From Mobula hypostoma (Eukaryota): DNA of 60,000 bases. Where the stretch lies: positions 163,248,001-163,308,000 of the forward strand of contig NC_086097.1 of the NCBI RefSeq assembly GCF_963921235.1, given 5' to 3'. Made by a program: the position numbers and the translations under genes. The notes beneath the pieces are model-generated. The model was not told the DNA's origin. It saw only the letters and a program-made list of their open reading frames with translations, and made no database searches. Positions 1,057 to 55,677 of the stretch are shown here, one piece after another; the stretch's first letter is position 1; every line of letters begins with the position of its first letter.

Positions 1057-1225
1057 TGTCATGGTCCGGTCCGTGAAGTCTGCATTCTGGTTCACGGTTC
1101 GGTCAGTGGACTCAAGACTCCGGGTCTTCCAGCTGTCCCTCGTTTGATTGAGTTAAGTATAGGCACCTGATTCCCATCTTGCAGCTTTGAACATAAGTAG
1201 CCTTGGGATTAAGTGTGGGCTGCTG

Positions 1226-2910: not shown

Positions 2911-4229
2911 ACTCAGGTAGGTAACACGATTTGCAGAGATGAGCTGGACCAAAAGGCCATTCCATGCTCTATAGCTCTAAGACCCTATGACTAAACATTA
3001 AGTGTCATCAAAATTCCAAACTTCTATATTATTGTTCTCCAGATATTTTATTATGCACCACAATTGTCAATAGGAATTTTCCCTGTTCAATGTAAGTCTG
3101 CTGATAAAGTTCCTTAAAATTGTTACTTGAATAACAGCTTTACATAGTTTCTTATGTAGGTCAATGTGATAAATAACAACTTAATTTTAATTACCTTATT
3201 CAAGGATCACCACATTGATATAGTCTTTAAGGGTCTTCATCAACTAAAGGGTCCATTCCAAGGCTGTTTTCTGAAGGAACTAAATTCATGATGATTTTGA
3301 TAAATAAAGTAGGATAATTGGATTGAATGTTGCATTTATTATTGGATCCCCAAAAAGTTGTGTTGTGACATGGACCTGAAAATAACATCTGATGTCCGAA
3401 GACTTGCCCTCCCCAATTCATCAAAAGCATCCCAAACTGTGAAGTAAGCTTCCACACAATTGCATATAGGCACAGATGCATTCCTCTACTACTTCTCCCA
3501 TTTAATCTTCAGCATCTTTATCAGTAATCAGTAATGGATGACCTCACATTTTACCAAGTTATGTGCCATGGCTAATCTTTTAATTCATCCCCAACCCCTG
3601 TAACCTCTTGATATCCTGCCCACAACTCATCAGCAAATACCTCATACTCTCATCCAAATCATTAATACAGGATATGAATATCTGGGGCCAAAGCATCAAT
3701 CTCTATGGCGCACACACCCAATTGAAAGTGACCCATTTTTTCCTACCTTTTGATTTCAGCTTTAAGTCAACATACTACCCCCAAACTGTGCCCTTTAATT
3801 TTCATCAATATCTTAGGCAGCACCACATCAAAGGTCTTCTGAAAGTCCAAATGCACCACAGAAAATGGCTAATACTCATCTATTATTTTGTGGTTACAAC
3901 TACAAACATCTTGTCAAACATGACCTCCCTTTTGTAAATCCATGAAGACTCTGCCCAAGCCTATCATTATTTTCTAAGTGCATTGTCACCACTTGCACTT
4001 AGAAACTACCAATGTCAAGCTGACTAGTCAATGGTTCTTTTACGTCTCTGCCTCTTCCTTAAATAATGGGGTTACATTTTTTGCCTTTCAATCTGCGGGA
4101 ACTGTTCCAGAAATTCTGAAAGATGATAAACAGGGTATCTGCTCACTATTATCATTTCCCATTAATTTCTTGTTTATCATTTGCCTCTTTACTGAAAAAG
4201 TCCCTTTGCGGGGTACCTACCCTGAAGAA

Positions 4230-4650
4230 ATTTAGATCCTTTCCGTGATTGGAGTTCAGTGAGACTCCCTCAGTGCTCCCCATCTGTGATCTCTACTGCT
4301 CTAATACTCTTTGACCATGTGCTCACCCAGACTCACTACCACAGCCACATGTATCACCTGTCCTCCTCGCCCCCACCTTCTTATTAGTTTCTGCACCCTT
4401 TTCAGTCCTGATGAAGGGTCTCAGCCCAGAATCTCAAATGTTTATTTTCCTCCATAGATGCTGCCTGACATGCTGAGTTCCTCCAGCATTCGGGTCTCGG
4501 CCCGAAGTATCGACTGTACCTCTTCCTACAGATGCTGACTGGCCTGCTGTGTTCAGTATTTTTTGTGTGTGTTGCTTGAATTTCCAGCATCTGCAGATTT
4601 CCTTGTGTTTGCATTTTTAAATCCTCCAGCATTGTGTGCATTGCTCAAAA
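4230..4650 (+). mobile_element. Penelope-like terminal (pLTR) fragments, two nested
   Basis: CAGTCCTGATGAAGGGTCTCAGCCC and GATGCTGCCTGAC...CCAGCATCTGCAGATT motifs shared with the GIY-YIG-bearing copy at 34908-35630. Confidence 0.7.
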
Positions 4651-7254
4651 TTTCACTGGTTCAGTTTTTTATTTCTTTGAAAGTTATGTATTCATTCTTT
4701 ATATACTAGCCATTATAGTTTTGCTGTTATACCCATTCTACCATAGCTAATTTACACCTCATGCTTTCATAGTCTGCTTCAAGGTCAGATTTAAGTCTTT
4801 GGTTTCAATTTCAAATAAATCAATTTTAATTTTTATGTAAAATTCTGTCATATTACAATAACAATCCTCTAATGGTACCTTAGCCATGAGCTCATTAATT
4901 AATTGTTATATTATTGGATCTAAAATAGCCTGTTCCTTCATTGGCTCCTCAGCACGCTGAAGCAGAAAACTATCCCACTAGACAATAAATATATCTGCAA
5001 CTTGTAACTTCATAAACGAACTGAAAAAAAAAACGGGAGACCAGGATAAATGTGTACTGTTCATTTTGACTTTTAGTGGAGTGCGCAGATATGACATAGT
5101 GATGTAATGACGTATGCCATTCACGTACATTTACATATAACCTGTATTGAATTATTTAAACAAAAAAGAATGCTTAATCAAACAATACATTTACAATATT
5201 ACTGAAATATTAAATGCACGACGGTACCTTTCCCGTATTCTTGTCAATTTAATTTTCCCTGCCTATCTGTAGATTATTGCATTACCCTTGCTAAATGTGT
5301 CTCTTGAATTATACCAAGCCTGCATACTCACTACTGTCTAGGGGCCTATAATCAACTCCCACCAATGTTCTGCTGTTTCTTAGCTCCGACCAAATTAATT
5401 TAACTTGATGATTTTCTGAACTACTCTCTGCTATCTTTATCCAATTATTTAATATGACTATTCCATTTTGTTTTCATTTTTTCATTATCTTTAAGTATTT
5501 TGGAATATTTAATTCCCAGCCTTGATCACTTTGCAACCACTTTTCTGTTCTTAGATCATGTTTTATATTTGTTTATGTCATTAATTAATCTGTCTTGTTA
5601 TCAATGCCCAATGCAGTAAGATAAAGAACTTTCAATTTTGCCCTTTTCTGTTTTTTTCCTGCTTTGACTATAATTGGGTGTATATCCATGTATTTTAATG
5701 TTTTTTTCCCCTTTCTAACAGACTCTGGTTATCAGTTGGCTACTCTGCATTCTGACAACTTTGTCCTTTTCATTTAACTTGGTAAATATCTGCTCCTCAG
5801 GACTTATCTTAATTTCCAATTATTCAGCCTTTTCTGTAGTCCTAGTTACTTATTCCTGTTTTTATAGAGCAATCCAGAAAGTTTTACTTTTGACTCCTTT
5901 TTTTTTGTTTGTTTCATGAAAATGATTGTTTCACAGACACTATTGATATGGAGTTTTTTATTTTGGGCTTACTAAACGTTGATTTCCAAGTTCTGAGATT
6001 GAAATAAATCATGGCTGAATGAGCTATGTGTCTGGATACAGGTTCAGTAGGTTGCTATTGTAGCTCACTACGTTGCTGTCTCTGATATGTCAAATATTGT
6101 TCCCGAGATTCCATATTAAATTACAATTGATATCAGAGCTTGATAGCTATGAAGCTGTACTGAACCACAGCACTAGAGCATCAGTGACTTACAGCTCTAC
6201 TACTATTCATACTTCAGAGTCAAGCTATGTCCAACTTTGACATCTGTTGGTTTCTACTACTTAATGTGGTTTATCATTGAGTTTGCAATGATTGCAAGAG
6301 ATAAATTTAATGAGGATGAGATCAATCTGAAATACTTTTCACCTTGCTCCGTCATCTGATGCAACTATAAATAGGAAAAAGCGTCAGGATTCTGCTTGCT
6401 TGCTGAGGTTTCCAACCACAACTGGAGTGGATATTGAAGTTCATTTTGTGCCTGTGCTCAAATAGCTCAGTGTGTCTAAGCTCGGAAATGTCAATTGTCA
6501 ATTGAGGACATCCATCTTTCACACATCATCCTTTAGGGTAGGGGTCGCCAACCCGTCAATCTTTGAGACTTTCCCAGTCGATCCCGAAGAAAAATCAAAA
6601 ATAAATACACAAATACTGTTGTAATGTGAGCATTATAAAAGTAAGTAATACTAATTAGGATAATGGTAATATAGCAATATTTTCGCTAAAAAGCTGTTTG
6701 TAAAGAGAGATTGTTTCCGGGTTGTGGGGGTTTAGTTCCGTTCTTTCTGCCCAGTGCGCATGGGTGTAGTTCCCCCGCCATGCACCGCGTTTTCAGCGTA
6801 GCCTGTGCTGCATAGTGACCAATCAGATTAGGTAACAGTACAGACTGTCGCAAACATCAATATATGGCAGTGTCCCCAATCTCTGGGCCAGGAATTTAAA
6901 GACACCTACCTCCCAAAGAGCGCAATTTGTGCCTGGAATGTTGAGGAAATGAAATGGGGGTTGAAGGCCCAGCAATCGTTTTCCACAAAACATGCTGCTC
7001 AAAATAAGGCTGCTATTGAAGCATGATTTCGTGTAAGTCACCTTTTGGCTAAACACAAGAAGCCTTTTACAGATGGTGATTTATTCAAGGAAGCAATGGT
7101 CATTACCAAAGACTCTTTAATGACTTTAAAAACAAAAACGGCATCACAACCGCAATACATAATATACCGCTTGGCCCTGCAACAGTGACAAGGAGGGCAG
7201 GGTCACTGTAGAGTTCATGGATGGACTTGTCACTCTGTGAATATTTTTCACTAC

Positions 7255-8111
7255 TGGAGAGTCAGTGACAGCCCGTAGAGACGGCAACCAGGGCAGAACA
7301 GGCTGGCAACCCAATCTGTGTCCTCTGAGAGGAGGACCCCCACAAAAGCTACAAAGAATCTAAGGAAAAGATACCCCCGGGGTGCCCGAGAGGTGGGGAG
7401 GATGAGCACCCCAGTCGGATGGACACAACGACGTCAGACCCAGGCGATGAACAAATGACGATGAGGAAGCAGTGTGCATGTGGCAAAACCTGCAAGAACG
7501 ATCGCGGCTTGAAGATCCACCAAGCGAGGATGAAGTGTTTGGCGGGAGCAGGAGCAGCACAACGCGCAGGTATCCAACCTGGTGAGACGAAGGAGGGGCC
7601 AGGCCCGGAGTCACCTCATAGTGCCCAGAACCTCCAAGTATTGCAAACTAATCCCTCCAACATGAAGTCTAACAGGAGGCGGATCAAATGGCCTGCAGCT
7701 AACATGACTTCACTGTGGAAGCAGTTTGATGAAGATGTTAACCAAATTCTGGAGGCAACGGCAAAGGGAGGAGTTGATAGGAAGCTGCCAGTGGAGGTTT
7801 GTTGTAGGGGATTCGTAGCCCATTCTTTAGTTAGAGCCTTCAGCATTTTGGGCATCGAGGGAGAGAGGAAGAGGAGAGCCATCTGCAGTACTACCGATGC
7901 GGCAGAGAGGGCCTCAAGAGGGCTGTGGCTCAAAAGAGGGGAGCCATGGAGTCATAAGTAGCTAGCCATCTGGACACAAGCTGGGGTCTGATCAGCCCTG
8001 GCTGGGTCACGTGGAGGAGGTTGTATGATGTTGAAAGACCCAAAACACCCGATGATTCCAGGAACATCACTGAAGATGTGTCCAGAAGCATCAATAGATG
8101 TGTGTACACAG
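7255..8111 (+). mobile_element. HERO-like (R2 superfamily) non-LTR retrotransposon, internally deleted
   Basis: ORF 7419-7961 joins an N-terminal zinc finger (CACGKTCKNDRGLKIHQARMKC) to an RLE C-terminal tail (PVEVCCRGF...AERASRGLWLKR); flanked by CTAC at 7251-7254 and 8112-8115; splits the hAT transposase. Confidence 0.8.
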
Positions 8112-8522
8112 CTACAGTTCGATGAATCCCTGGATGTAATGCAAACAGCTCAGCTTGTTGTATTTGTCAGAATGGTTTTCCAGGATTTCACAACAAAGGA
8201 GGACTTCCTCACTCCTTTGCAATTAAAGGAAAGAACGAGAGGTGAGGATATTTACAATGAATTTAAAAAATGTCTGTGAAAATGACATCCCCATTCATAA
8301 ACTGGTGTCAATTACTACTAATGGGGCCGAGCAATGCGCGGTCTGTGCGTTAGTTTTATAGCACTGAAAGTCAGTGCCTACTTCGGGTCACTACTATGTG
8401 AAATTGCATTTTCACAGATGAAAATTATTAAATCTAAGTACAGGAGCTGACTTACTGACAGACACCTCTCTAGGGTTGCCAACTTTCTCCCTCCCAAATA
8501 ACGGACGAAAGTAGCAGTCAAA

Positions 8523-8949
8523 ACAACAGGAAATCTGCAGATGCTGGAAATTCAAGCAACACACATCAAAAGTTGCTGGTGAACGCAGCAGGCCAAGCAG
8601 CATCTGCAGGAAGAGGTGCAGTCGACGTTTCAGGCCGAGACCCTTCGTCAGGACTAACTGAAGGAAGAGTGAGTAAGAAATTTGAAAGTGGGTGGGGGAG
8701 ATCCACGGACCTCCTGTCCCATGATCCTTTCATATCCCTTTTGCCAATCACCTGTCCAGCTCTTGGCTCCATCCCTCCCCCTCCTGTCTTCCCCTATCAT
8801 TCCAGATCTCCCCCTCCCCCTCACTTTCAAATCTCTTACTAGCTCTTCCTTCAGTTAGTCTTGACGAAGGGTCTCGGCCTGAAACGTCGACTGTACCTCT
8901 TCCTAGAGATGCTGCCTGGCCTGCTGCGTTCACCAGCAACTTTGATGTG
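8523..8949. mobile_element. Penelope pLTR inverted-repeat insertion
   Basis: Two opposite-orientation copies of the Penelope terminus; 13-bp TSD AGTAGCAGTCAAA (8510-8522, 8950-8962). Confidence 0.85.
8619..8656 (-). ncRNA. Minimal type I hammerhead ribozyme motif (Penelope-associated)
   Basis: Minus strand TAGTC-CTGACGA-AGGGTCTCGGCCT-GAAA-CG-TC-GACTG: helix I, CUGANGA core, helix II, GAAA, minimal helix III, UC site. Confidence 0.7.
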
Positions 8950-9827
8950 AGTAGCAGTCAAATCCCGGGACATTTGCGTTTATCCCGAGAAAGACTACAG
9001 TGACCATGAAGCCTTGCGCGGGCAGCTGTGTGCGCATGCGTGATGTGCCAATTTCCCCCCCCCACACCCAACCCCACGAATCGGTTTTGGCTTAATCTTC
9101 ATTATTTCTACTATATATAGGCTGTGTATTTATCATATCATTCCTGCTTTTACTATATGTTACTGTTACTTTAGGTTTTATGTGTTATTTGGTATAATTT
9201 GGTAGGTTTTTTTGGGTCTGGGAACGCTCAATTTTTTTTCCATATAAATTAATGGTAATTGCTTCTTCGGCGTAAAGCATTTCGGCACGAAAGGTTTCAT
9301 CGGAACATGCTACCTTAGCGGGGGAAATACGGGACAGTTGGCAACCCGACACCTTACAGACTGTCTCAGACTAGCTGTCTGTAGTTATGAGCCAAATTTC
9401 AGGGAACTAACAGAAAGTATTCAGCCCCAGTCATCACACAGAGTGATGAATTTTTATTCATTTATTTTTCGTGTTGAAATAAAATTAAATAATGAAACTT
9501 AGAATTAAAGGTGTGAAGTATTGTAATATTCTTAAAGAAAGACAGCTATTGCCTGTTTGATATACTAGTTACAGTGTTTTCTTGTTTGAATTAATTTGAA
9601 AGTTTGACAAAAGTATTTTGTGTAATTCAAATACAATTCGCCCAAATAAAAGGCCTCAAATTGGAAGTACAATCTGAGCTGTGTTTTCTCTAAATGATTT
9701 AGTAGGTAGATCTTGCCTTTCACTAAGGTCGAGGTAGGTGATCTTGGGATTAAAAAGGTTGGTGACCACTACTTTAGGGTATCATAAAGTCATGAAACCA
9801 TCCAAAGTGGCCCTCAACTTTGAACAC

Positions 9828-10070
9828 GGCATGCACAATAGTGTAGCAGTTACCATAACCTTATTGGAGCACCAGCTATCTGGGTTCAATCCCACTGCTG
9901 TCTCTCAGGAATTTATACCTTCTCCCCATGACCATGTGGGTTTCCTCCGGGTGCTCCAGTTTCCTCCCACATTCCAATGACTTATGGGTTAATTGGTCAC
10001 ATGGGTGTAATTAGGTGGTATGGGCTCTTTAGTCCGGAAGAGCCTGTTTACCGTGCTATGTTTCTAAATT
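9828..10070 (+). mobile_element. tRNA-derived V-SINE (HE1-like)
   Basis: B-box-like GGGTTCAATCCC and V-domain GGGTTTCCTCCGGGTGCTCCAGTTTCCTCCCACA. Confidence 0.8.
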
Positions 10071-11562
10071 ATTATTTAGTTTATTAATAAAAATAAATAC
10101 ACTGAGATAATTTTATTCTGCTATCGTACCTAAACACTCCATCTTTAAGACAGTAACCTCTACCTACCTACAGCAATGACTGACATTCCCTCAGCTCAGC
10201 ACACGTGTTGCTGAAACCCTCAACCATCAGTAGATCCGTGGATTAATAGCGAAGAAATGAATAGATTAGCAGATATTGCAGGAGTCAAGGGATACTCTGC
10301 AAAGTGGTACTGAAGTAAAAGATCAACCTGGATCTTACTGATTGACATCTGGTGGCCCAGATGACAGACAGAAGCCACAGCTCTTTATGGTAGTTTGAGA
10401 GGCAATTTGTACCTGCTGACAAGTTGCCTATTGGGTTCGAGGGTGGCGTGAGGGCACTGGTAAAGTGACTGGAGCCATAAGCAGAGCAAGCAGCAATCAA
10501 AGAAGTGATGAGGTAGCTGGACTGCAGCTATACGCCACTGCCTTGAGAGTTCCCTTCATCAGATTATATCAGTAAGATCATTACAGAAAATGTAACAGGA
10601 ATTGGGGGCTATGTACCAAAAAATAATGCAGTCTGCAGCACTGGGCACAAACTAGCTGAATGACAGAACAGACTTTCCGAACGACCAATTGCTATTTTTC
10701 CCCTATCTTCTTAAGTTGCTGCCTTGTGCATTTGTCCTGTTTCCATTGCAAGGAGCGTTAGAGTTACAAATGTTAGGAACCAGATTAATAATGATGAGAT
10801 TGGAAAATTTGTCTTCAAGTGCCTGTAGACATCTTCTACAGAAAGAAAGAATAAAATATAGAAAGGAAAGTAAAATGAATTAATATAATGTGAAGGCAGT
10901 ACCATCACAGCATGATACCACTCAGATAGATTAAAAATAACACAAGAAATAAACAGCACATTAAAGTGCAAGTGTTGAGAAACTACTTCTTATGGTGATA
11001 GTTCTGCAATAATCACATTTTTCTTTCAATACATTTTAACATATTTTAAATAGATTTTTATTATCTATTCTCATTTTAAACTTGATTATGATTATTCCAA
11101 TCCCAACTTCAAAGATTTTATCTTTCTGTATTTCCCAGCTGGTATCTCCAACAGTTGATTTCCTTGCAAGACATTACTGAAATGTCAAAGCATAGATAGT
11201 TGACACAAACATTTTCAAAATCAGTTCAATACACAATATTGCAAATATGTGAAACTGTTACAACTGTGGGAGTATCACAGAGAAATTCTGGAAGGCAGTA
11301 TTGCAGAGACACTGGGAATCTGGTGCTGTTCCAGCCTAACCACAGGGAAATGTGCAAAGTAAGAGAAAGCAGTATCAGAAATAACAATGCAAGATGTGAA
11401 ATATTTGATGCTAGAATGAATGTTCCATCCGTATATAGCTCTAACAAAACCTAGGTACAGTCAGATATATCAGAGTTCATAAATTTCCCTTAGATAGAGT
11501 TGCAAAGAATGTGACGTTTTCCATATTGGTTAATGTGAAGTAGATGCTTTTCAGGTACCATA

Positions 11563-12381
11563 TGTCATGTACCCCGTGACGGGTTAAAGATCCAGCAGAA
11601 ATGGAAAACACTTTGAAGTCCAGTATTGCTATTAACTAATGGTATTCATTAGTAACTATGCAATACAGTAATATAAATGCAGATATATCAAACAGGTTAG
11701 CAATGATTATATATAAGTAAGTGTGGAAATATATGAAAACCAAGCTTCTTCAAGTCTAGGGGTAAATCGATAGTCTTACGATGATGAGTAAGTTTCAGTT
11801 CAGTTCGTGGTATTGAATTGAGTAGTGATGGAGAGAGAGAGAGGGAGAGGTTTGAGTCTTCAGGTGAGCTGATCTCGTCGATCTTCCCGTTGTCCTCTGA
11901 AATCCTTTAGAAGTCATCGACTGTGACCACAACAAAGGGGACAGTTCTTCTGTGGTGGAATTATTAACCCAGGTGAGGGTTGGACACACAAATAACTTCC
12001 CACCGGTCACACCCTTTTCACACTGCAAGAGCCGCTGATCGATCCACCTGATTGATCCTTCAAAAACCCACCTTTTCTGTGGGCACAACAAAGCTCATTC
12101 AGTGTCCAAACCATGTGTCTGTAGCTCTAACAGCTGACCTTCTATTTATCTCACCGTGCTGAATACCAGCTGTCCATCAAGCAGCTCCTCCCTTCTCTCT
12201 CTGTAAGAACTTGGAAGCTGCCAGTGTCCTTGTAGAAAGTATAAACAAACTGTGAGCAGTCTTTGCCTCTCTCTCTCTTTCTTTCTCTCTCTTTTTAACA
12301 AGGAGTCTGTGTTGAACAACTCTCTCTGTCCTTTTCAAGGTATAGTCCACAAAAAAATATGACCCCTAGGGGTACATAACA
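11563..12381. mobile_element. Probable solo LTR
   Basis: TG...CA ends with a 13-bp terminal inverted repeat TGTCATGTACCCC / GGGGTACATAACA; TSD not clean. Confidence 0.6.
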
Positions 12382-14249
12382 ATATAAATTAGGGAATTGT
12401 TACAGTGTTTGATAGCATCTAATAAGAGTTGACAGTCTAACAACAAGACTGGATTTATTTCAATTGTGTATGGTTGGAACTATACCAGTGGGAATAACGG
12501 AAAAGGGAGAAGTTGAGCGATCAGGAATCAAATCTTGGATTTTCATAATTGGGGTTGTTGACCTGATGACCACAAGCCATTGAGAAAACCAGGAAATTTT
12601 TTGGTGAGTTTTTACTGTGTGCTGGAATTTATTAGATTTATTTATTGAGATACAGCACAGAATAGGCCCTTCTGGGTGAAAAAACCTCAAACAACATTTA
12701 ATCAATTTTTCCAATTTCCAGAAGCCATCCATAAATTGCCAGATTTATTTAACTCATTTTGCACTTTCCAAGTTGGGTTTTAAAATCATTCTCCAGGTTA
12801 TCATATCCACGATAGCTATCATAATTCTAGGAAATTTCCACTGATTATTAACAAAAAATAATTACCTTTTTATAGTTGAACAGTTGAAACTAGACAGCAC
12901 TGTCTCATACAAGTGCATTTAATGTCCTTTGACCACAATCCAATGACCCCATGTATAGCAGCTGAGAGAAGAACTAGAGCTGGTCATTCCTAAGGCATAA
13001 CACACATTCTCCACATTCACTCCTCAACATGTTCTAATTACTTTAGGATCTCTGGGATAAACATTCAAGTTTGAAATTATACCTTTGGGAAGGAACAGGA
13101 GAAAAGTAAGCTCAAAAAATGTATATTGTTATCCAGCATCCTTAATATGGAATAAAATTGGCAGTTTCCAAAATGATGCTTACTGTAGGAACTATGGTTT
13201 AAAACACAGTTCAAATTGCTGGTAAATTTTGCATCTATATTTTCAAAGCTCTCTGCATATCAAATAGGTAATTGTAGACAATTGATAACAATTAATTCCA
13301 ATCTTATGGAATGGCAAAGCTTAGGAAGAAATTAAAAACATATTTTTGGACTGAATTTCGATCCAATCTACTTATTTCACTTGTGAACAACAGTGCTTGT
13401 ACTCCTTCCCTCCACCTACTTATTTTGGCTTCTTCCCTGTTCCTTTCCAGTCCTGATGATGGATCTTGGCCTGAAATGTTGACTGTTTGTTTCCCTCCAT
13501 ACATGCTGCCAGATTTGCCAAGTTCCTCCAGTACTTTGTGTGTGCTGCTCAAGATTTCCAGCATTTTCAGAATCTCTCGTGTTTATAACAGAGTTTGCAT
13601 TTTGTTACAGCATTTTATGGGTGCTTTTTTTTTTGCATAGAAAAGACAAGAATATATGTAGTAACCTTTAAAGCGCTTGATTGTTCATTTGGTAAATAGT
13701 GTACAAATCTGACACATGAAGACCAGAAGATAATATGTCTAGATGACTTAGCTGATATCATCTTTTTTATTTAACTTATATATTCATGCTGGATGGTGGG
13801 GTGGAGATATGTCGCTACCAAAGGAGGTGTAAGACACTCCTTCCCTCCATTACCCTGCAGGTCACCCTTGGGCAAGGTGTTGCATCTGCTTAGTCCCCCG
13901 ATCAGGGTCATGTGAAACCATGGGAGCAGGTGGTGGATGGCCGTATGAGTAGCTGTTGCATATCACAAGTGACCACGGACACCAAGCAGAAAATCTCTGA
14001 AGAGCATTGATTGCAATGGTTGGTGTCACCTGTCTTGTAAGACACTGCCCAGAAGAAGGCAATGCAAACCATAGAAAAATTTGTCAAGAACAATCATGGT
14101 CATAAAGACCATGATTGCCCATATCATACCATACAGCACATAATGATGATCTCTTCTGGACATCAACAGTAACAGTAGTATTTCAAGATGATGTGTTTAT
14201 GTTTGCATAGAAATTACAAGAAATATATTAAGACTAGTATTTCTTGCTC

Positions 14250-15500
14250 ACTTTAATTACCCTTAAAAGATAATAAACTGCCTTCTTGAACGACTGTAAT
14301 CATTCTGTTGAAGGTACTCAAACAATGCCATTTGGTAGGGAATTCAAGGAATTAAAGTGAAAGTCAAGGAACAAATTGCGATATATTTCCCTGTCAAAAT
14401 CTCTGTGACTTGGAGGAGGTGATGGTGTTCTTGGGTGCAGTTCATGAGGTTATGAGGTGGTGTCAGATAGACTGGGCAAGAAACAGAAGTGTACTTTGAA
14501 AGTGGTATATCCTCTTGCCACTGGGTGTCAGAAGTAGAGTAAATAAATAATTCAAGTTGTTTGTAAGGCACTAATCAAGCTGCTGTGTTCTGCTTGGTGT
14601 CAAATTTGAGCATTGCTGGGCTCTTCCACATAAGGGAAGAGTATTTCAGCATACTTTTGACTTGCGCCTTGTAAATACTGGAAAGACTTCAGAGTGTCAG
14701 GAGGTGAGTTTAAGTTACATAATGCAGGATAACTGGCCCTTAACCTACTTTTGTTGACATGGTGTTTATATGAGTGCTTCACTTAAGGATCTGGTCAATG
14801 TTGATAATGGAGGACTTGGCAATAGTAAAGCCATTGATGATCAAGGAAAGCTATTTGTAGTTGGTCTATATTGGACATTTTTCAAATGTGACTGTTGTCT
14901 AAATCTAGATCCCGGCAGCTTCAGTTCCTGAATAAGAATGAAAATTAATGTTTTGCAATCATTAGTGAACTTCTGAGTTTATGATGGAAGGAAAGATGAA
15001 ATGAAACAGATGAAGATATTGGGCCTAAAACATATTACTACAGTGATGTTCTGAGGATGGGAAGATTGACCTCCAACAGTATCACCATCTTTCATTGCTC
15101 AAGGTATGACACCGACCATTAGGAATGTTTTGCCCCACATGGTCATTGGCCTTAGTTTTACCAAGTACCACGGAGTTGGACTTGGCCAAGTGCTGCCTTG
15201 ATGCCAAAGAAAATCATAGTTAGCTCACCTCTGAATGGACTTCCTTGGTCCATTTTTGGATTAATGAGATCTGTAGCATGGTCCTGGGGAAACCTGAACT
15301 GTTTATCAATGAGCGGACCATTGATGAGCAAATGCCACTTGGTATTACTGCTAATGTCACCCTCAACCATTTTGCAGATGATCGGGAGGAGACCTATTAG
15401 GTTGCAATTTGATTGAATTTCTCCTGCAGTTTGTGAATGGAACATATCTGGGCAATTTTTGACATTGTAGGTAGATACCAGTGTGATAACAATACAAGGA
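14250..15500 (-). mobile_element. Old degenerate CR1-group LINE (RT)
   Basis: ORF 15158-15445 has decayed RT motifs (IGLLPIICKMVE, QFRF, FGIKAALGQV resembling DIKAAFDxV). Confidence 0.55.
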
Positions 15501-18050: not shown

Positions 18051-18576
18051 ATGGGGAAGGATGGATCAGACCAAATGAATCAATCTCTGGCCAGGGTGAA
18101 GCAATCTCTGCTCAGGTGATGCCACTGTTCAGAAGATGTCTGGTTGATAAATTACTGAGTGATTGAGATACAGGAAAAAAAAGAGAGCAAAACAAGGAAG
18201 AAGACACTTTAAATCTGTGCAATGCTAGTCAGAAATGGTTGGTTCTGCTGTTTGGCTATCTATCTACAAAATTAACTCTGTCTTTCTCTCTCCATGAGCA
18301 CTGACTGTTCTGTAGGCAGACCCAACATTTTGCTTTTGATTTCACGTCTCAAAAACAGCCCTGATTTGCATTTCAGAGATTTATCATGTCTTTTTGTTTA
18401 AATGTTGTCATTGATCTATCAGCCTGTTATCAAACAGTAGGATCACCTCTGTAACCTTGTTATCGGCATGTCTGCCCCTTCCATTCACTCACCCACCTCG
18501 ATTTGGAACTTAAATTCTCATCTTGGATTAAGGGTCTCAACCTGAGGACCATTTTTTTTTGCTTCTCTTTCCACAG

Positions 18577-20162
18577 ATCAGAATCAGAATCAGGTTTATT
18601 ATCACCGGAATATGTTGTGAAATTTGTTAACTTAGCAGCAGCATTTCAAAGCAATACATAATATAGAAGAAGAAAGAAAGAGAAAAAATAATAAAAATAA
18701 ATAAGTAAATCAAATACAGTATACATATATTGAATAGATTGAAAATTGTGCAAAAACAGAAATAATAAATATTAAAGTGAGGTAGCATTCACGGGTTCAA
18801 TGTCCATTCAGGAATCAGATGGCAGAGGAGAAGAAGCTGTTCCTGAATCACTGAGTGTGTGCCTTCAGGCTTCTGTACCTCCTACCTGATGGTAACAGTG
18901 AGAAAAGTGCATGCCCTGGGTGCTGGGGGTCCTTAATAATGGATGCTGCCTTTCTGAGACACCACTCCCTAAAGATGTCCCGGGTACTTTGTAGGCTCAT
19001 ACCCAAGATGGAGCTGACTAGATTTACAACCCTCTGCAGCTACTTTCGGTCCTGTGCGGTAGCCCCCACCCCCACCCCATACCAGACAGTGATGCAGCCT
19101 GTCAGAATGCATTCCATGATACATCTATAGAAGTTTTTGAGTGCACTTGTTGACATACCAAATCTCTTCAAACTCCTAATGAAGTATAGTCACTGTCTTG
19201 CCTTCTTTATAACTGCATCAATATGTTGGGACCAGGTTAGGTCCTCAGAGATCTTGACACCCAGGAACTTGAAACTGCTCACTCTCTCCATTTTTAATCC
19301 CTCTATGAGGATTGGTATGTGTTCCTTCATCTTACCCTTCCTGAAGTCCACAATCAGCTCTTTCATCTTACTGACGTTGAGTGCAAGGTTGTTGCTGTGA
19401 CAGCACTCCACTAATTGACATATCTCATTCCTGTACACCCTCTCGTCACCATCTGAGATTCTACCAACAATGGTTGAATCATCAGCAAATTTATAGATGG
19501 TATTTAAGCTATGCCTAGCCACACAGTCATGGGTATAGAGAGAGTAGAGCAGTGCGCTAAGCACACACCGGAGGTGCACCAGTGTTGATCATCAGCCGAA
19601 GAGAAGATATTATCACCAATCTGCACAGATTGTGATCTTGCAGTTAGGAAGTTGAGGATCCAATTGCAGAGTGAGGTACAGAGGTCAAGGTTCTGTAATT
19701 TCTCAATCAGGAATGTGGGAATGATGGTGTTAAAAGGTGAGCTATAGACGAAGAACAGCATCCTGACATAGGTAACACACACAAAAAGTACTGGTGAACG
19801 CAGCAGGCCAGGCAGCATCTATAGGAAGAGGTACAGTCGACATTTTGGGCATGTTGCTTGAAATTCCAGCATCTGCAGACTTGCTTGTGTTTGCGTTCCT
19901 GACAAAGGTGTTTGTATTGTCTAGGTGGTCTAAAGCCGTGTGAAGAGCCATTGAGATTGCATCTGCCATTGACCTATTGTGGCAATAGGCAAATTGCAAT
20001 GGGTCCAGGTCCTTGCTGAGGCAGGAGTTCAGTCTAGTCATGACCAACCTCTCAAAGCATTTCATCACTGTAGATATGAGTGCTACTGGGCGATAGTCAT
20101 TAAGGCAGCTCACATTATTCTTCTCAGGCACTGGTATAATTGTTGCCTTTTTGAAGCAAGCG
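18577..20162 (-). mobile_element. Rex1/Babar-like LINE fragment
   Basis: RT motifs [23 protein letters not shown]; (CTGATT)n tail. Confidence 0.9.
19774..19896. mobile_element. Short 5'-inverted Penelope terminal insertion in Rex1
   Basis: 13-bp TSD TCCTGACA(T/A)AGGT at 19761-19773 and 19897-19909; two Penelope pieces in opposite orientation. Confidence 0.75.
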
Positions 20163-20339
20163 TGACCTGCAACATTTTCTGCTTTATCTCAGATTTCCAC
20201 TGTTCACAGTTAGAAAAAAATTCCAACACATGCTCTCTGGTCTTAATCAACCTTGGTTCAGCAATTGTATTCTCAACCTTGAGTGAGAAGGATTTGGGTT
20301 CAAGTAACACTCCAACGAATTACACATGTAACCTTAGCC

Positions 20340-21016: not shown

Positions 21017-21229
21017 TAAACACAAAATAATCTGCAAATGCTGGGGTCAAAGCAACACTCACAACACGCTGGAGGAACTCAGTGGGTCGGGCAGCATCAG
21101 TGGAAAAGATCGGTCGATGTTTCGGGCCAGAACCCTTCGTCTTCGAAGGGTTCCAGCCTGAAACGTCAACCGATCTTTTCCACTGATGCTGCCCGACCTG
21201 CTGAGTTCCTCCAGCGTGTTGTGAGTGAG
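21017..21229. mobile_element. Penelope-derived near-perfect hairpin insertion
   Basis: Arms 21056-21139 and 21144-21227, loop TCTT; 13-bp TSD ATTTGCTAGGCTG. Confidence 0.85.
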
Positions 21230-32721: not shown

Positions 32722-33220
32722 TAATGAGTAATCCCTCTTTCCACCCAGTCTCAACTGCAAGAGTGCAGAATTTTACAGTGTAGTCCCTCACAGTTCTTTT
32801 CCCTTGGCGCAGGTCCAGGAGTCGGTGGGAGCGTCTTGACCCCATACTGAAGATCAAATTGCTGGAAAGACTGACTGCAGGAGAAGCTTGTTCTCAAAGA
32901 GTGTTGAAAAGACTGAGTGGGGATCCAGCTCAGAGATTCACCATGTAATCCATTCTACATTTGTCATCACCAAACTGAACTTGCTGGGCTTGGAAAATCA
33001 GTTCACGCTGGGTACTGAAGTTCCTACATTGACAATAAACTTGAATACAGAGTCACTAGAGTATCAGCTCTAGTGGAGAAATAGTTGGTTCAGATCTGAA
33101 GGCTGGCAAAGGAATTGGGGCATTAGTAAATACAAAATACTCTGCAGATGCTGGGGTCAAAGCAACACTCACAACACGCTGGAGGAACTCAGCAGGTCAG
33201 GCAGCATCCGTGGAAACTAT

Positions 33221-33258
33221 CAGTCAACGTTTCGGGCTGGAACCCTTCGTCAGGACTG
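33221..33258 (-). ncRNA. Minimal hammerhead ribozyme motif
   Basis: Minus strand CAGTC-CTGACGA-AGGGTTCCAGCCC-GAAA-CG-TT-GACTG with perfect helix I and helix II. Confidence 0.7.
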
Positions 33259-33911
33259 AAGAGGGGAGGGGCAGAGGCCCTATAAAGATGGTGGGGGGAG
33301 GGTGGGAAGGAGAAGGCTGGTAGGTTCCAGGTGAAAAACCAGTAAGGGGAAAGATCAAGGAGTGGGGGAGGGGAAGCAGAGAGGGGATAGACAGGAAAGG
33401 TGAAGAAGGAATAGGGGAAAGCACAATGGGTAGTAGAAGGAGGCAGAACCATGAGGGAGGTAGTAGGCAGCTAGGGGAGGGGGCAGAGTGAAAAAGGGGT
33501 AGGGGAAGGGAGAGGGAAGGAATTACCGCAAGTTGGAGAATTCAATGTTTATACCAAGGGGCTGGAGACTACCTAGACAGTATATGAGGTGTTGCTCCTC
33601 CAACCTGAGTTTAGCCTCATAATGGCAGTAGAGGAGGCCATGTATGGATATATTTGAATGGGAATGTGAAGCAGAGTTGAAATGGGTGGCAACCGGGAGA
33701 TCCTGTCTGTTGTGGCAGACGGAACGGAATTCTCCAACTCCCCCTCCCTTCCCCTATCCCTATGTCACTCTGCCCCCTCCCCCAGCTGCCTACTACCTCC
33801 CTCATTGTTCCGCCCCTTCTTCTACCCATTGTGTTTTCCCCTATTCCTTCTTCACCTTTCCTGCTTCCCCTCCCCCCACCTTCTTTATAGGGCCTCTGCC
33901 CCTTCCCTCTA

Positions 33912-33949
33912 CTGTCCTGACGAAGGGTTCCGGCCAGAAACGTCGACTG
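33912..33949 (+). ncRNA. Minimal hammerhead ribozyme motif (slightly degenerate)
   Basis: CTGTC-CTGACGA-AGGGTTCCGGCCA-GAAA-CG-TC-GACTG. Confidence 0.55.
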
Positions 33950-34907
33950 ATCATTTCCACGGATGCTGCCCGACCTGCTGAGTTCCTCCAGTGTGTAGTG
34001 AGTGTTGCCAGGGCATTAGTAGCTGAGGCTGATGAGACTGTTACAGAGGAGGATGTGGGAGGTTCTGATTCTGGGAGTGGAACTGTCCTGGCAGAAGGCT
34101 GCTGAATAGTGGTAGTGGAAGTAGTCATGGCTGCACCTGATTCTGCTGCTAAAGAGCAGCAGGAATGGATGCCATGTGATTCAGTCTGCCTGTGATAAGT
34201 TGCTGAACTTTTGCAATGAGAGCTGACACCTGTTTTCCCTGCTTGGACTGGGCTTCCTGCTCTGAAAGAAATTGTTGCATTGCGTGAACCATTTCTGCCA
34301 ACCTAGCCTCCACTGACTTCAGTGTCTCCAGCTGGCTAACGAACTTTGATTTGGGCTGGGTTTGACGCTCTTAAGAGTAGTTGCTGCACTGCACGAGCTA
34401 CTTCTGCCAAACCAGCTTCCACTGACTTTAACTTCTCTCCTAACTGACCAACGAAATTCAGCGCCAAAATCTCTGCCGGGTCCATTTTGTTGCAGAAAAC
34501 ACAGACACAGAGGCAGAATGAATAATTCACTGAGTTTAAATAGTAATGTACAGAACAAATGGAAAATAATAATTGCTAGGCCAACAGGACCACCAACTAA
34601 AACTTTCAAACTAAAATCTAACACTGTCTCTGTGTAATTTTCTTTCACAGAACGTGGACTCCTTAGTCTCCGTAGTAACCAGGGAGAATTGCTGTCACTG
34701 TTCTTTGAAAAAGACTGAAATGAAAGGAAGGGAGTTAAATACAACAGCAAAGAAGCCCTAATTGCCTGGAATATGCATTTTCACGGGTGTGCTTGCCTAC
34801 TCCTTTCAGCTGCCTGCCTGCGAGGGTGCCCAGACTCAGAGGCACAGTCCACATTGTGACACAGACACTGATTTTAACAACAAAAACAGAAAGTGCTGGA
34901 GTCCGGT

Positions 34908-35211
34908 GCTCCCGATGCGGCCTTCTATATATTGGCGAGACCCGACGCAGACTGGGAGATCGTTTCGCTGAACACCTATGCTCTGTCCACCAGAGAAAGC
35001 AGGATCTCCCAGTGGCCACACATTTTAATTCCACGTTCCATTCCCATTCTGATATGTCTATTCACGGCCTCCTCTACTGTAAAGATGAAGCCACACTCAG
35101 GTTGGAGGAACAACACCTTATATTCTGTCTGGGTAGCCTCCAACCTGATGGCATGAACATTGACTTCTCTAACTTCCGCTAATGCCCCACCTCCCCCTCG
35201 TACCCCATCCG

Positions 35212-35242
<31 letters not shown>

Positions 35243-35630
35243 TATACACTTTCTTTTTCTCGCTCTCTCTCCTTTTTCTCCCTCTGTCCCTCTGACTATA
35301 CCCCTTGCCCATCCTGTGGGTTCCCGCCCCCCCCCGTCTTTCTCCCTGGGCCTCCTGTCCCATGATCCTCTCATATCCCTTTGCCAATCACCTGTCCAGC
35401 TCTTGGCTCCATCCCTCCCCCTCCTGTCTTCTCCTATCATTTTGGACCTCCCCTCCCCCTCCCACTTTCGAATCTCTTACTAGCTCTTCTTTCAGTTAGT
35501 CCTGACAAAGGGTCTCGGCCCAAAACATTGACTGTACCTCTTCCTAGAGATGCTGCCTGGCCTGCTGCGTTCACCAGCAACTTTTATGTGTGTTGCTTGA
35601 AATTCCAGCATCTGCAGATTTTCTCGAGGC
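34908..35630 (+). mobile_element. Penelope-like element 3' end with GIY-YIG endonuclease
   Basis: CSRCGLLYIGETRRRLGDRFAEH...LEEQHLIF..GSLQPDGMN; pLTR follows; TSD TGCTGGAGTC(C/G)GGT. Confidence 0.9.
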
Positions 35631-38619: not shown

Positions 38620-39995
38620 CGTAGAGGCTGCACTCCGATCCAGGGCCACAAATAGTCCATCCAGGTGAGGCGACACTTCACCTGCAAGTCTGTCATTGTC
38701 ATCAGCGCAGCCTCCTTTTCATTGGTGAAATCAGACACAGATTGGGGTCTACGTTGTCAAGCACCTTCACTCAGTCCCCTCCAAAAGGCAGGATCTCCCG
38801 ATAGCCGCCCCTCTCTATCCGACCTCCCATTTCCATTTTGACCTGTCTTTCCATTGCCTCCTCTACTGCCACCATGAGGCCAAACTCTAATTGGAGGAGT
38901 AACATCTCATATTCTGTCAGAGTAGCCTTTTAACCTGTTGGCAAGAACATCGATTTCTCTAATTTCCCCATTCTGGTTACCCTCCCAACCGCTTCTCTTC
39001 TCCTCAGCAGCCCATTACCTGCACCTGTTTGCTTTCTTTCTTCCTTTCTTTTATGGTCTACAGTTTTCTCCCATTAGATTCCTTTTCCTTCATCCCATTG
39101 CCTCTTACTTTACTATATTGTCACCAAACAATTGATACTAGAGCATACAATCATCACAGTGATACCTGATTCTGCGCTTCGCCTATCCCCTCCCAGCTTA
39201 GAAACATAGACCATAGAAACATAGAAAACCTGCAGCGCAATACAGGCCCTTCGGCCCACAATGCTGTGCTGAACATATACTTACTTTAGAAATTACCTAG
39301 GGTTACCCATAGCCCTCTATTTTTCTAAGCTCCATGCACCTATCCAGGAGTCGCTTAAAAAGCCCTATTGTATCCGCCTCCACCACTGTTGCTGGCAGCC
39401 TGTTCCACACATTCACCACTCTCTGCGTAAAAAACTTACCCTGACATCTCCTCTGTACTTACAAACACCTGTGCTAGTCATTTCAGGCCTAGGAAAAAGC
39501 CTCTGACTATCCACATGATCAATGCCTCTCATCATCATCTTATACACCTCTATCAGGTCACCTCTCATCCTCCGCTGGTCCAAGGAGAAAAGGCCGAGTT
39601 CACTCAACCTATTCTCATAAGACGTACTCCCCAATCCAGGCAACATCCTTGTAAATCTCCTCTGCATTTTTTCTATAGTTTCCACATTCCACCTCATGTA
39701 GTGAGGTGAGCAGAACTGAACACAGAACTCCAGGTGGGGTCTGACCAGGGTCCTATATAGCTTCTTACATCATCCCCTCTCCCCCACCCATCCATCTCTC
39801 CCCTATCACCTGACAGCTTGTATTCTTTCCCCACTCCCCACCTTTTTATTCTGGCTTCTGTCCCTTCCTTTCCAGTCCTGAAGAAGGTCCTTGGTCAGAA
39901 ATGTTGACTGCTTATTCTCCTCCATAGACATGCTGGTGAGTTCCTCCACCATTTTGTGTTTTGCTTAGGAGTTCCAGCACCTGCAGGATCTCTTG
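38620..39995 (+). mobile_element. Degenerate Penelope element interrupted by CR1
   Basis: Decayed GIY-YIG-region similarity to 34908-35180; pLTR resumes at ~39760. Confidence 0.65.
39200..39760 (-). mobile_element. CR1 3' fragment
   Basis: MQRRFTRMLPG...RMRGDLIEVYK and CR1 tail. Confidence 0.9.
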
Positions 39996-41671
39996 TGTTA
40001 TAGATGTGCACAGTTTCTCCCCCCTCCCCCATGTAATAGGCACATTTACAGGCAGTAGCATCTGCATACACATGAAATATTTGAGGAACTCAGCAGATCA
40101 GGTAGCATCTATAGAAGGAAATAAGCAGTCGACATTTTGGGCCGAGTCTTTCAACTGGACAGGAAAAGAAGGGAGCAGAAGCCAGAAGAAGAAGGTGTGG
40201 GGGGTGTAGTAGGTGGTGATAGATGAGGCCTGATGACAGGAGGAGGTGGGGGTGGGTGGGGGGTGTTAATATGAGAAGCCGGGAGATAATAAATTAAAGA
40301 GGCAAAGGGGTGGTGAACAAGGAACCTGAAAGAGAGGACAGTGGGCCATGGAAGAAAGGGAAGAAGGTGGGGGACCAGAGGGAGGTGGTGTGCAGGTCAA
40401 ATGAAAGATCTTGATCTGAAATGTTGACTGTTCATTTAATTCAATAGATGCTGTCTGATCTGTTGAGTTCTTCCAGCATTTTGTGCATGTTGCTCAAGAT
40501 TTTCAGCATCTGTAGAATCTCTTGTGTCTCTGACACACGGACATCCTTCTTCTTAGAAAGCCTCTTGGAACAAGGATCATTTGCTTCCCCTCTGTTTTAG
40601 TGTTTTAGTGGGCTATAAGGTGGCATTGATATGAGCAATGTAGGAGCCACAGACCCTTCAACAGATAGAGAAGGAGGTGTCTGATGGGGTTGGTGTGAGG
40701 GTGGTTTATGAAGTCTTCTCATTTCTACTTGGTCTTAATCCATGGCCCTGAAGTTCAATGCTCCTTCCACACTTTAAATAGTCTTAGAGCAGAAAGTCAA
40801 TTGGAATATTGCATTTTTTTTCAGGGAGGTTTTGCGTACATTCTTCAAGCTTGCCCCTGTCCACTTGATAAACTTCCCAAGGCTTCCCACAGAACAGAGT
40901 GTGTGTTTCAGGAGGTTGATGTGGCTTACCCAAAGCAGCTGACTGAGGGTAATTAGGATCTCCATGCTGAGGACAATGGCAGAGTTATAGAGTCATACAG
41001 CATAGAAGCTGGCCCTTCAGCCCAACTAGTCCATCCTGACCAAGATGCCCTTCCAAACTCATCATACTTGCCTGCATTCAGCCCATATCCCTTTAGATTG
41101 TCCTTATCCATCTACCAATCCAGATGTCTTCCCATGTTGATTGCCAGTTCATGTATCCTTTTAGTGAATTTGGAGGGTTTTGCAGAGACAGTGCTGATGG
41201 TGTCTTTCAACTGCCTTGACATGCTTACCATAGCTTTCCAAAGGATGGGGTGTGATCACTGTTGGCCAGCAGACTGCAAGTGTCATGCCAGGCCTATGGT
41301 ATCGATCATTTCCTCACTGAGGTTCAAAATTGTGCAGGTGCTTTGACAGTGATGGTGAGTTTCTTTATCAATGTCTGCCTTCACCAAGCGATAGTTCCTG
41401 AGATATGGAAATGTTACATTTGTGTTGCCCTGTTATTAACAAGCTTTATGTAGGCACCCTCTAACAATGAACGTCCAAAAGAAAAACAAGAGATACAGCA
41501 CAAAAGGAGATGTTTCAGTCCATTAACTCTGTAGTAGCCCTATGTAAGAACAATCCAGCTGGTCCCTTTTGCCTGCTCTCTCCCCAGAGTCTTGCAGATT
41601 ATTTTCTCTCAGTACTTATTCAGTTTCCTTTGAATGCTACAATTAAATCTTCCTCCAATACTACACCTCCA

Positions 41672-55627: not shown

Positions 55628-55636
55628 TGTGTGTGT

Positions 55637-55674
<38 letters not shown>
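55628..55674 (+). repeat. (TG)n microsatellite
   Basis: Direct inspection. Confidence 0.95.

Positions 55675-55677
<3 letters not shown>

What the first reader, a model, noticed from the sequence alone, without database searches (positions are those of the whole stretch)
8619..8893. Minimal hammerhead ribozymes carried by Penelope termini, recurring across the window
Seen: the motif (C/T)AGTC-CTGANGA-AGGG-loop-CC(C/T)-GAAA-CG-TH-GACTG, with complementary helix I arms. It is best preserved at 8619-8656(-), 33221-33258(-) and 33912-33949(+), and decayed at 4403, 8856 (core C>T), 13448, 35497 and 39873. Known: Penelope-like elements carry minimal type I hammerheads with an almost absent, palindromic helix III, proposed to cleave as dimers. 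Inference: two subfamilies (helix II loop TCTCGG vs TTCC(A/G)G) keep the core and helices while the loop varies, which points to selection on RNA structure. The genome may hold a large, dispersed self-cleaving RNA family.
Basis: partly seen in the sequence, partly recalled or inferred. Interest (0 to 1): 0.75.

Follow-up and report, generated by a model that had tools for sequence, protein, structure and literature searches.

The report
Penelope retrotransposon ends with minimal hammerheads
These repeats are the cut-short, mostly mutated tail ends of a Penelope-type jumping gene, likely in a ray genome, carrying a tiny RNA motif already known from such elements and predicted to cut RNA only in pairs or with protein help; they are ordinary, apart from a possible intron that would end inside the motif.

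Summary
The motif is real. All eight listed copies lie where stated, and six more partial or decayed ones were aligned. It sits 271-322 nt behind GIY-YIG endonuclease remnants 96% identical to a Mobula protein. The insertions show Penelope hallmarks: head-to-head arms, a one-sided tail of about 35 nt, and 11-14-bp target-site duplications. The architecture matches the published minimal type I hammerheads of Penelope-like elements (PMC4209133). Three subfamilies, not two, keep core and helices (A vs C: 2/28 differences against 25/46 in flanks). Individual copies decay no more slowly than their flanks (24/300 vs 109/1226, p=0.73), and covariation does not beat shuffles. So selection acted on active lineages, not on these genomic copies. 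Only 1 of 8 has an intact core plus G10.1-C11.1, and inverted pairs are predicted to lock the motif. All 14 aligned copies run through the cut site. One lead: the 3' UTR may be an intron from the stop codon to helix I (donor supported, acceptor weak). The scan noted the same family in at least 12 other genomes. Verdict: new member of a known kind.

The parts
8619..8656 (-). Minimal hammerhead, subfamily A. Core intact, G10.1-U11.1, C17; predicted cut between 8624 and 8623; lies on the tail-bearing arm
8856..8893 (+). Minimal hammerhead, subfamily A, C3>U (core broken); lies on the tail-less arm
8523..8949 (.). One insertion: two head-to-head pLTR arms joined near 8700-8707, flanked by a 13-bp target-site duplication (8510-8522, 8950-8962)
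34908..35630 (+). 5'-truncated element, subfamily A, flanked by a 14-bp duplication with one mismatch (34894, 35631)
34901..35182 (+). [quoted passage not shown]
   Evidence: (Pfam GIY-YIG E 0.003, below the curated cut-off)
35178..35499 (+). Pyrimidine-rich (78% Y) 3' UTR and candidate intron; donor poor in this copy, YAG acceptors ending at 35495 and 35499
   Evidence: one imprecise joint 35182->35498 in one run guessed to be RNA; inference
35497..35534 (+). Minimal hammerhead, subfamily A, decayed (G8, G12, G16.2 and C17 changed); the family majority has the intact letters
   Evidence: (table 3)
35549..35626 (+). Conserved downstream block and tail. A predicted stem pairs the block's start with the tail; family 3' ends fall near 35595-35596 (tail-less) and 35621-35626 (with tail)
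   Evidence: (table 7)
33129..34010 (.). One insertion, subfamily B: minus arm 33723->33129 (endonuclease end, UTR, hammerhead, tail) and plus arm 33730->34010 (tail-less), with an 11-bp duplication (33118, 34011)
33526..33723 (-). Endonuclease C-terminal remnant, 87% identical to Hypanus XP_059827357.1. The stop codon overlaps a donor-like G|GTAATT at 33527/33526
33221..33258 (-). Minimal hammerhead, subfamily B; the only copy of 8 with intact core and G10.1-C11.1; U17
33912..33949 (+). Minimal hammerhead, subfamily B; core intact but 11.1=A and one mismatch in helix I
21017..21229 (.). Short head-to-head insertion, subfamily B; both hammerheads are cut inside the core at the junction (21141/21144); 13-bp duplication (21004, 21230)
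19774..19896 (.). Very short head-to-head insertion, subfamily A, inside a LINE reverse-transcriptase remnant; 13-bp duplication with one mismatch (19761, 19897)
4403..4440 (+). Decayed hammerhead, older subfamily C
4492..4621 (+). Subfamily A stub (begins at helix II) inserted into the older C pLTR, with an exact 12-bp duplication (4479, 4622)
13448..13485 (+). Decayed hammerhead, subfamily C, in a pLTR stub at 13395-13590
38632..39999 (+). Old subfamily C element: endonuclease remnant 38632-38967, UTR split by a LINE insertion (about 39212-39770), hammerhead 39873-39910, tail
40068..40535 (.). Old head-to-head pair, subfamily C, with decayed hammerheads at 40126-40162(-) and 40393-40430(+); no duplication found

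Best explanation
These are 5'-truncated insertions of an abundant endonuclease-bearing Penelope-like retrotransposon, likely of the Neptune type and likely in a ray, whose terminal repeat carries a minimal type I hammerhead motif that was likely under selection only in the active element lineages and now decays in the genomic copies at the rate of its flanks. Shown: the order endonuclease, pyrimidine-rich UTR, hammerhead, conserved block, tail; two classes of 3' end about 61-66 and 97-101 nt past the cut site; head-to-head pairs with one tailed and one tail-less arm inside 11-14-bp duplications; and all 14 aligned copies continuous across the cut site. Inferred: a single motif cannot form helix III and, when position 7 is C, folds as an inactive rod. 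It would cut after ACGU-H only when two motifs pair through the ACGU palindrome (tandem transcripts) or when the element's protein refolds it, as shown for the anole element. Reverse transcription would start at two sites downstream of the motif, on RNA that is uncut (or re-joined) at this hammerhead, which is why even very short stubs carry it. The likely job of cleavage is to trim tandem or read-through transcripts of full elements. The dispersed stubs are passengers.
For: Enrichment. Endonuclease remnants upstream of three hammerheads, and close ray homologs. A CX3-4CxxC linker in homologs P0001, P0002, P0003 and P0005, the Neptune/Nematis mark according to PMC8557442. Duplications at 5 of 9 boundary pairs tested, scores 10-12, against 1 of 498 random pairs reaching 10, plus one found by eye afterwards. 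One tailed and one tail-less arm in 5 of 5 inverted pairs. Loose ends at both 3' positions among laid contigs. Between subfamilies, core+helix versus flank differences: A-C 2/28 vs 25/46 (p=4e-5), A-B 0/21 vs 6/10 (p=3e-4), B-C 1/20 vs 4/11 (p=0.04). No excess conservation within subfamilies. Monomer rod fold. Published parallels: PMC4209133, PMC11167929, PMC3846280.
Against: No cleavage was measured. The hammerhead dimer is not the predicted best dimer: for 33221 it scores -19.3 kcal/mol against -30.9 for an alternative duplex and -25.8 for two monomer rods (the energy model omits tertiary contacts). No reverse-transcriptase part and no linker lies in the window, so the clade rests on homologs, and Neptune was not separated from Nematis. 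The within-subfamily test has 14 copies and majorities of 3-5, so weak selection could be missed. The between-subfamily flanks are low in complexity and align poorly, which inflates that contrast. The downstream block differs at 10/32 (A-B) and 9/32 (A-C) but only 3/32 (B-C).
Confidence: 0.8

Rival explanations
1. Cleavage and re-ligation are obligatory: the hammerhead releases unit-length RNA that circularises, and insertions span the cut site because they are copied from circles (retrozyme-like).
For: Proposed for these elements in PMC4209133. A 2026 preprint links animal retrozymes to pLTRs and reports them in its one chondrichthyan genome. Copying from a re-joined circle would also give continuous cut sites.
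Against: There is no tandem array of units in the window, and three copies carry endonuclease sequence. Hammerhead mutants of the anole element still insert in vitro, and no RNA-seq reads began or ended at its cut site (PMC11167929). None of the 30 joints shown falls at the cut site (248 more were not shown).
Confidence: 0.15
2. The motif is kept as a folding or protein-binding element, or as part of a splice acceptor, and cleavage is vestigial in this family.
For: The monomer folds as a rod and the catalytic dimer is not favoured by energy. Published minimal hammerheads cleave weakly, and 8 of 9 Xenopus dimers did not cleave. Naiad elements thrive without hammerheads.
Against: The subfamily majorities differ at no core position: 0 of 11 for A-C and 0 of 9 each for A-B and B-C. 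That fits catalysis better than generic structure. The related anole motif cleaves with protein and loses activity on C3 or G8 change.
Confidence: 0.15
3. One reading: a large dispersed family of working self-cleaving RNAs whose genomic copies are kept by selection on the host.
For: About 7% of the window (4412 nt) is from this family; 5 of 8 full copies keep the core letters; 3,379-14,812 contigs per run guessed to be RNA match it (one of these runs is flagged as probably DNA).
Against: Copies decay as fast as their flanks; no covariation; only 1 of 8 has the core plus G10.1-C11.1; copies in inverted pairs have helix probabilities of 0.0 in the whole-insert fold; same-strand partners are hundreds to thousands of bases apart.
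Confidence: 0.06

Closest known systems
Minimal type I hammerheads (min-HHR) in pLTRs of metazoan Penelope-like elements (Cervera and de la Pena 2014, PMC4209133; read: parts 1-2 of 4 of the text and part 2 of supplementary file 2)
   Same: CUGANGA, one unpaired base, G10.1-C11.1, GAAA, a C-G palindrome with no helix III, UH, and a short helix I; described in Xena, Poseidon and Neptune elements of fishes, with about 4,000 copies in coelacanth and 9,000 in Xenopus.
   Different: Helix II has 4 bp here, against 7-8 bp in Schistosoma. The chordate rows of that alignment include no shark or ray (supplementary file 1 could not be searched).
Poseidon element PAc of Anolis carolinensis (Frangieh et al. 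2024, PMC11167929; read: parts 1-2 of 4)
   Same: Hammerhead upstream of two reverse-transcription start sites that delimit a 30-40-nt tail; uncut RNA is the main template.
   Different: Poseidon lacks the linker zinc finger, and its ORF starts inside the hammerhead. Here no start codon gives a frame shared by the subfamilies (read from the sequence), and the ORF start is not in the window.
Endonuclease-bearing PLE insertions with an inverted pLTR and a one-sided tail (Arkhipova 2013, PMC3846280; Craig 2021, PMC8557442; passages read)
   Same: Head-to-head 5'-truncated arms, a tail on one arm, short target-site duplications.
   Different: Duplications are 11-14 bp here against 8-10 bp in Adineta. 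Targets are not microsatellites, unlike the bias suggested for Neptune elements.
Drosophila virilis Penelope pLTR intron (via PMC4209133 and PMC8557442 passages)
   Same: An intron whose 3' end maps to the 5' arm of helix I, giving different spliced and unspliced hammerheads.
   Different: 75 nt and demonstrated there; 271-322 nt, with a donor overlapping the stop codon, and only partly supported here.
Non-LTR retrozymes (bioRxiv 10.64898/2026.07.22.740005; read: abstract, first part of Results, passages; supplements closed)
   Same: Type I hammerhead in pLTR-related sequence, reported in one chondrichthyan.
   Different: Retrozymes are tandem arrays; these copies are dispersed or inverted, and some retain coding sequence.

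Membership tests
Minimal type I hammerhead of PLEs | CUGANGA and GAAA boxes, U16.1-H17 | tested here: met
   Intact in 5 of 8 full copies; no core difference between subfamily majorities; the family majority restores G8, G12 and C17 lost in the 35497 copy
Minimal type I hammerhead of PLEs | Unpaired base between 9 and 10.1; G10.1-C11.1 | tested here: met
   A at that position in 11 of 12 copies covering it; 10.1-11.1 is GC in 5, GU in 4, AU in 1 and unpaired in 3 of 13
Minimal type I hammerhead of PLEs | Helices I and II | tested here: met
   89% of cells paired against 16-46% in slid controls
Minimal type I hammerhead of PLEs | Compensatory covariation in the helices | tested here: inconclusive
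   2 two-sided changes, 153 of 500 shuffles as high; covariation score reached by 210 of 500; only 14 related copies
Minimal type I hammerhead of PLEs | Palindromic 15.2-16.2 with no stable helix III | tested here: met
   ACGU in 4 of 8, AUGU in 2, broken in 2
Minimal type I hammerhead of PLEs | Self-cleavage as a dimer or with protein | not testable with these tools
   Only contigs were available
EN+ Penelope-like element | C-terminal GIY-YIG endonuclease with CCHH finger | tested here: met
   CxxC and both His align with homologs; Pfam GIY-YIG E 0.003, below the cut-off
EN+ Penelope-like element | Telomerase-like reverse transcriptase in the same ORF | tested here: inconclusive
   Absent from the window by truncation; RVT_1 at E 2e-6 in homolog P0012, which is 51% identical over the endonuclease
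EN+ Penelope-like element | pLTR with inverted truncated arm, one-sided 30-40-nt tail, target-site duplication | tested here: met
   5 inverted pairs, each with one tail; duplications at 4 of these 5 and at 2 single insertions
Neptune clade | CX2-5CxxC linker finger before the endonuclease | tested here: inconclusive
   Not in the window; present in homologs 74-96% identical; shared with Nematis
Neptune clade | Placement in a reverse-transcriptase tree | not tested
   No RT in the window and no reference set fetched
Non-LTR retrozyme | Tandem non-coding units, each with a full hammerhead | tested here: not met
   No such array among the repeats or motif hits; the adjacent 4403/4492 pair is a nested insertion
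D. virilis-type pLTR intron | Splice donor used | tested here: inconclusive
   Two Hypanus RefSeq isoforms are identical up to FSNFR and diverge right after; predicted models, with RNA support not seen; the donor is poor in the A copy
D. virilis-type pLTR intron | Acceptor at the 5' arm of helix I used | tested here: inconclusive
   Acceptor-like YAG at or 4 nt before the arm in 6 of 9 copies; one imprecise single-contig joint; not among the 15 joints shown for subfamily B

The most novel reading that the evidence does not exclude
In ray Neptune-type elements the whole 3' UTR is a spliceosomal intron whose donor overlaps the ORF's stop codon and whose acceptor AG is part of the 5' arm of helix I. 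Splicing would remove the stop codon and cut helix I from 5 to 3 contiguous pairs, a switch between a ribozyme-competent unspliced RNA (the form found in every long insertion here) and a ribozyme-weak mRNA. The intron-hammerhead coupling of Drosophila Penelope would then extend across PLE clades to vertebrates, and the donor would let thousands of fragments splice into host transcripts.
Probability: 0.3. Interest if true: 0.55.

Novelty: new member of a known kind. Interest (0 to 1): 0.25.

Why it matters
As it stands it adds a ray family to a published class and shows that its abundance comes from retrotransposon copying rather than host use. The family is large enough to measure, from insertions alone, where reverse transcription starts and whether cut RNA is ever copied. 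That bears on the open question of what hammerheads do in Penelope-like elements. If the intron is real, it links splicing to ribozyme activity in a vertebrate element and is testable by one RT-PCR.

Tried and rejected
No whole genome was held, so copy number and genome-wide selection could not be measured. Rfam gave no hammerhead family; its mir-1791 hit at 21078-21204 is the fold-back of the inverted insertion, and the other five matches are below their gathering scores. The pattern scan of viral contigs found nothing. The metagenome scan gave 12 loci. 7 of 11 distinct ones extend helix I by 3 or more pairs outside the pattern (p=1e-6), but none hit the four PLE proteins tried within 600 nt and only one matched the family, over 42 nt; they show that the motif is general, not this family. 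No RNA holder was listed, and all runs were contigs, some only guessed to be RNA, so RNA ends at the cut site could not be examined. Summed contig depth in the RNA-guessed runs falls relative to the DNA run over the candidate intron (for example X13/X1 about 0.09 at 35140-35168 and 0.03 at 35169-35197, worked out by hand). I do not count this, because contig depth cannot rank parts of a stretch and other subfamilies cross-map. Allele shares in RNA versus DNA runs point both ways (11.1 more often changed, G8 and G12 less often), so they say nothing about cleavage. The expected subfamily B splice joint 33255->33527 was not among the 15 of 41 joints shown. The downstream stem shows no covariation above shuffles (147 of 500); its inner hairpin is misregistered in the subfamily A rows, and fold z-scores were -3.2 and -0.8 for two copies. 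No duplication was found at 4 of 9 boundary pairs. The primary paper on dimer cleavage (Lunse et al., PMC5785218) is not held; I saw only its reference entry and a review's summary (PMC6765202 passages). Literature searches for hammerheads in cartilaginous fishes and for this intron layout found no direct description, but the library lacks most subscription papers, Repbase and Dfam were not available, and supplements I could not see (file 1 of PMC4209133; the preprint's) may list shark or ray motifs.

Full report
Observation. A 15-nt version matched 9 times against 0.51 expected, and a 38-nt scan found 12 places where shuffles gave 0.07 on average. The core boxes alone are barely enriched, 14 against 7.8. 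Rfam has no model that detects it. Reading it as a type I hammerhead gives: helix I of 5 bp, CUGANGA, one unpaired A, helix II of 4 bp with a four-base loop, GAAA, C-G, U-H. Of 8 full copies, 5 keep the core letters, 2 (8619, 33221) also keep all pairs of both helices, and 1 (33221) has G10.1-C11.1. 33912, named among the best, has A at 11.1 and a helix I mismatch. Fourteen copies were aligned; four weaker or motif-less pieces seen (19843, 45830, 46628, 59903) were left out of the counts.

Carrier. Three hammerheads lie behind remnants of a GIY-YIG endonuclease: 34901-35182(+), 33526-33723(-) and 38632-38967(+). The first is 96% identical to a Mobula hypostoma protein and 88% to a Hypanus sabinus protein, so the host is likely a myliobatiform ray (inference). 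Pfam support in the window is weak (E 0.003). Homologs continue upstream into a reverse transcriptase and carry a CX3-4CxxC linker, which PMC8557442 gives as the mark of Neptune and Nematis (passages). No RT or linker lies in the window, so the clade is inferred. About 4412 nt, 7% of the window, derive from the family (hand-set intervals). 202,279 contigs of one DNA run were laid on one 851-nt copy, which shows great abundance but is not a copy number.

Insertion anatomy. Direct repeats of 11-14 bp flank 5 of 9 boundary pairs tested, with scores of 10-12; 1 of 498 random pairs reached 10. A sixth, exact 12-bp duplication marks an A stub inserted into an older C terminus at 4479/4622 (found by eye). 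All five head-to-head pairs have one arm with and one without the tail; in the three measured pairs the ends lie 97-101 and 61-66 nt past the cut site. Loose ends among the laid contigs fall at 35595-35596 (X13, X17) and 35621-35626 (X16, X17, X1), matching both classes (24 rows shown, 2472 hidden). This is the published layout of endonuclease-bearing Penelope elements (PMC3846280 and PMC8557442 passages) and agrees with the two reverse-transcription start sites of the anole element (PMC11167929, parts 1-2). All 14 aligned copies are continuous across the cut site, and none of them begins there.

Selection. There are three subfamilies. Between their majorities, core plus helices differ at 2/28 (A-C), 0/21 (A-B) and 1/20 (B-C), against 25/46, 6/10 and 4/11 in the upstream flank and spacer (p=4e-5, 3e-4, 0.04). 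Upstream flank was available only for A-C, and it is low in complexity. The downstream block differs at 10/32, 9/32 and 3/32, so it is also constrained, at least between B and C. Within subfamilies there is no excess conservation: non-CpG 24/300 against 109/1226 (p=0.73), CpG 14/48 against 3/26 (p=0.15). The motif is CpG-rich and decays there first. Covariation does not exceed shuffles. Among contigs laid on the 35497 copy, the DNA run shows G8 in 79%, G12 in 67% and C17 in 76% of summed depth, so that copy decayed from an intact ancestor. The pattern is that of constraint during retrotransposition followed by neutral decay.

Mechanism. Predicted monomers of the best copies fold into a rod in which the core pairs with the CGUH strand. 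The catalytic dimer can be drawn through the ACGU palindrome, but it scores worse than alternatives (-19.3 against -30.9 kcal/mol for 33221). Folding each whole insertion gave helix probabilities of 0.0 for 5 of 5 copies tested; four are locked in the inverted repeat. Published minimal hammerheads are inactive as monomers and weak as dimers (PMC4209133). The anole motif cuts only with its protein, and its mutants still insert in vitro. I therefore infer low, dimer- or protein-dependent cleavage that processes tandem transcripts of full elements, with uncut or re-joined RNA as the template. No step of cleavage is shown here.

Possible intron. The stretch between stop codon and hammerhead is 78-82% pyrimidine. 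In subfamily B the stop overlaps G|GTAATT; in the A copy the site is poor. An acceptor-like YAG lies at or 4 nt before the helix I arm in 6 of 9 copies, against 0.8 such sites per kb in the window, but helix I itself requires that AG and the UTR is pyrimidine-rich throughout. For: two Hypanus RefSeq isoforms are identical through FSNFR and then diverge, and the end of the first one seen matches no frame of the B UTR. Of 15 joints shown, four start at 35177-35182, all in runs guessed to be RNA, and one goes to 35498; each is a single contig with unknown letters between. Against: the matching joint was not among the 15 of 41 shown for subfamily B, and the DNA run's joints were incompletely counted. 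Splicing would leave 3 of 5 helix I pairs. The same geometry is known for Drosophila virilis Penelope. Probability about 0.3.

Comparison and novelty. The motif meets every sequence feature of the minimal hammerheads of PMC4209133, whose alignment holds the same C-G, U-H arrangement in fishes, lamprey and Xenopus but no shark or ray row. A 2026 preprint reports type I hammerhead repeats in one chondrichthyan. The copies fail the tandem test for retrozymes. Searches found no paper on ray Penelope hammerheads, and 36 and 65 none on this intron layout, within a library that lacks most subscription journals. Earlier notes of this scan report the same kind of element in at least 12 other genomes; none was found for the intron idea. 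Verdict: new member of a known kind, interest 0.25.

Noticed in passing
window 7329-7961 (+): A 210-aa frame with an N-terminal CxxC..H zinc finger joined to what resembles the C-terminal end of a restriction-like endonuclease of R2/HERO-type non-LTR elements (recalled resemblance); no Pfam hit. Possibly an internally deleted element.
   Followed up: partly
window 297-1058, 22418-24623, 31492-32772, 35893-37638, 39212-39770, 41716-42947, 59140-59787: Many copies of a LINE with a reverse-transcriptase remnant (RVT_1 E 3e-14 at 22418-23629; repeats). The CR1-like label is recalled.
   Followed up: partly
window 16852-18065, 18774-20188, 26593-27088, 50089-51083, 58439-58553: A second LINE family with RVT_1 and ALKBH8_N-like hits; one copy is interrupted by the 19774-19896 Penelope insertion.
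   Followed up: partly
window 4479-4633: A younger Penelope stub inserted into the conserved block of an older Penelope terminus, with an exact 12-bp duplication.
   Followed up: yes
target-site duplications at 4479, 8510, 21004, 34894: 4 of 6 duplications contain TGCT or AGCA, a word also found near the tail-less 3' end of the element; this could reflect a target preference or short priming homology. Noticed after the fact, small numbers.
   Followed up: no
window 21111-21172: Both arms of this subfamily B insertion share a C at helix I position 1.4; the partner base is lost to truncation, so a compensatory change cannot be checked.
   Followed up: no
P0003 and P0018 (XP_059827357.1, XP_059827355.1): Hypanus RefSeq proteins named DIPK1C isoforms consist almost wholly of this Penelope ORF, which suggests exonisation or misannotation.
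   Followed up: partly
window 28243-28695 (+): Weak DUF4672 hit (E 2e-4, below cut-off); possibly a host exon.
   Followed up: no
window 53800-55700: GC-richer stretch (51% at 54001-56000) with several open frames lacking Pfam hits and a TG microsatellite; possibly a host promoter region.
   Followed up: no
L001-L012: Minimal hammerhead-like motifs in metagenome contigs with varied helix II and predicted helix I in 7 of 11 distinct loci; not linked to a Penelope ORF within 600 nt.
   Followed up: partly
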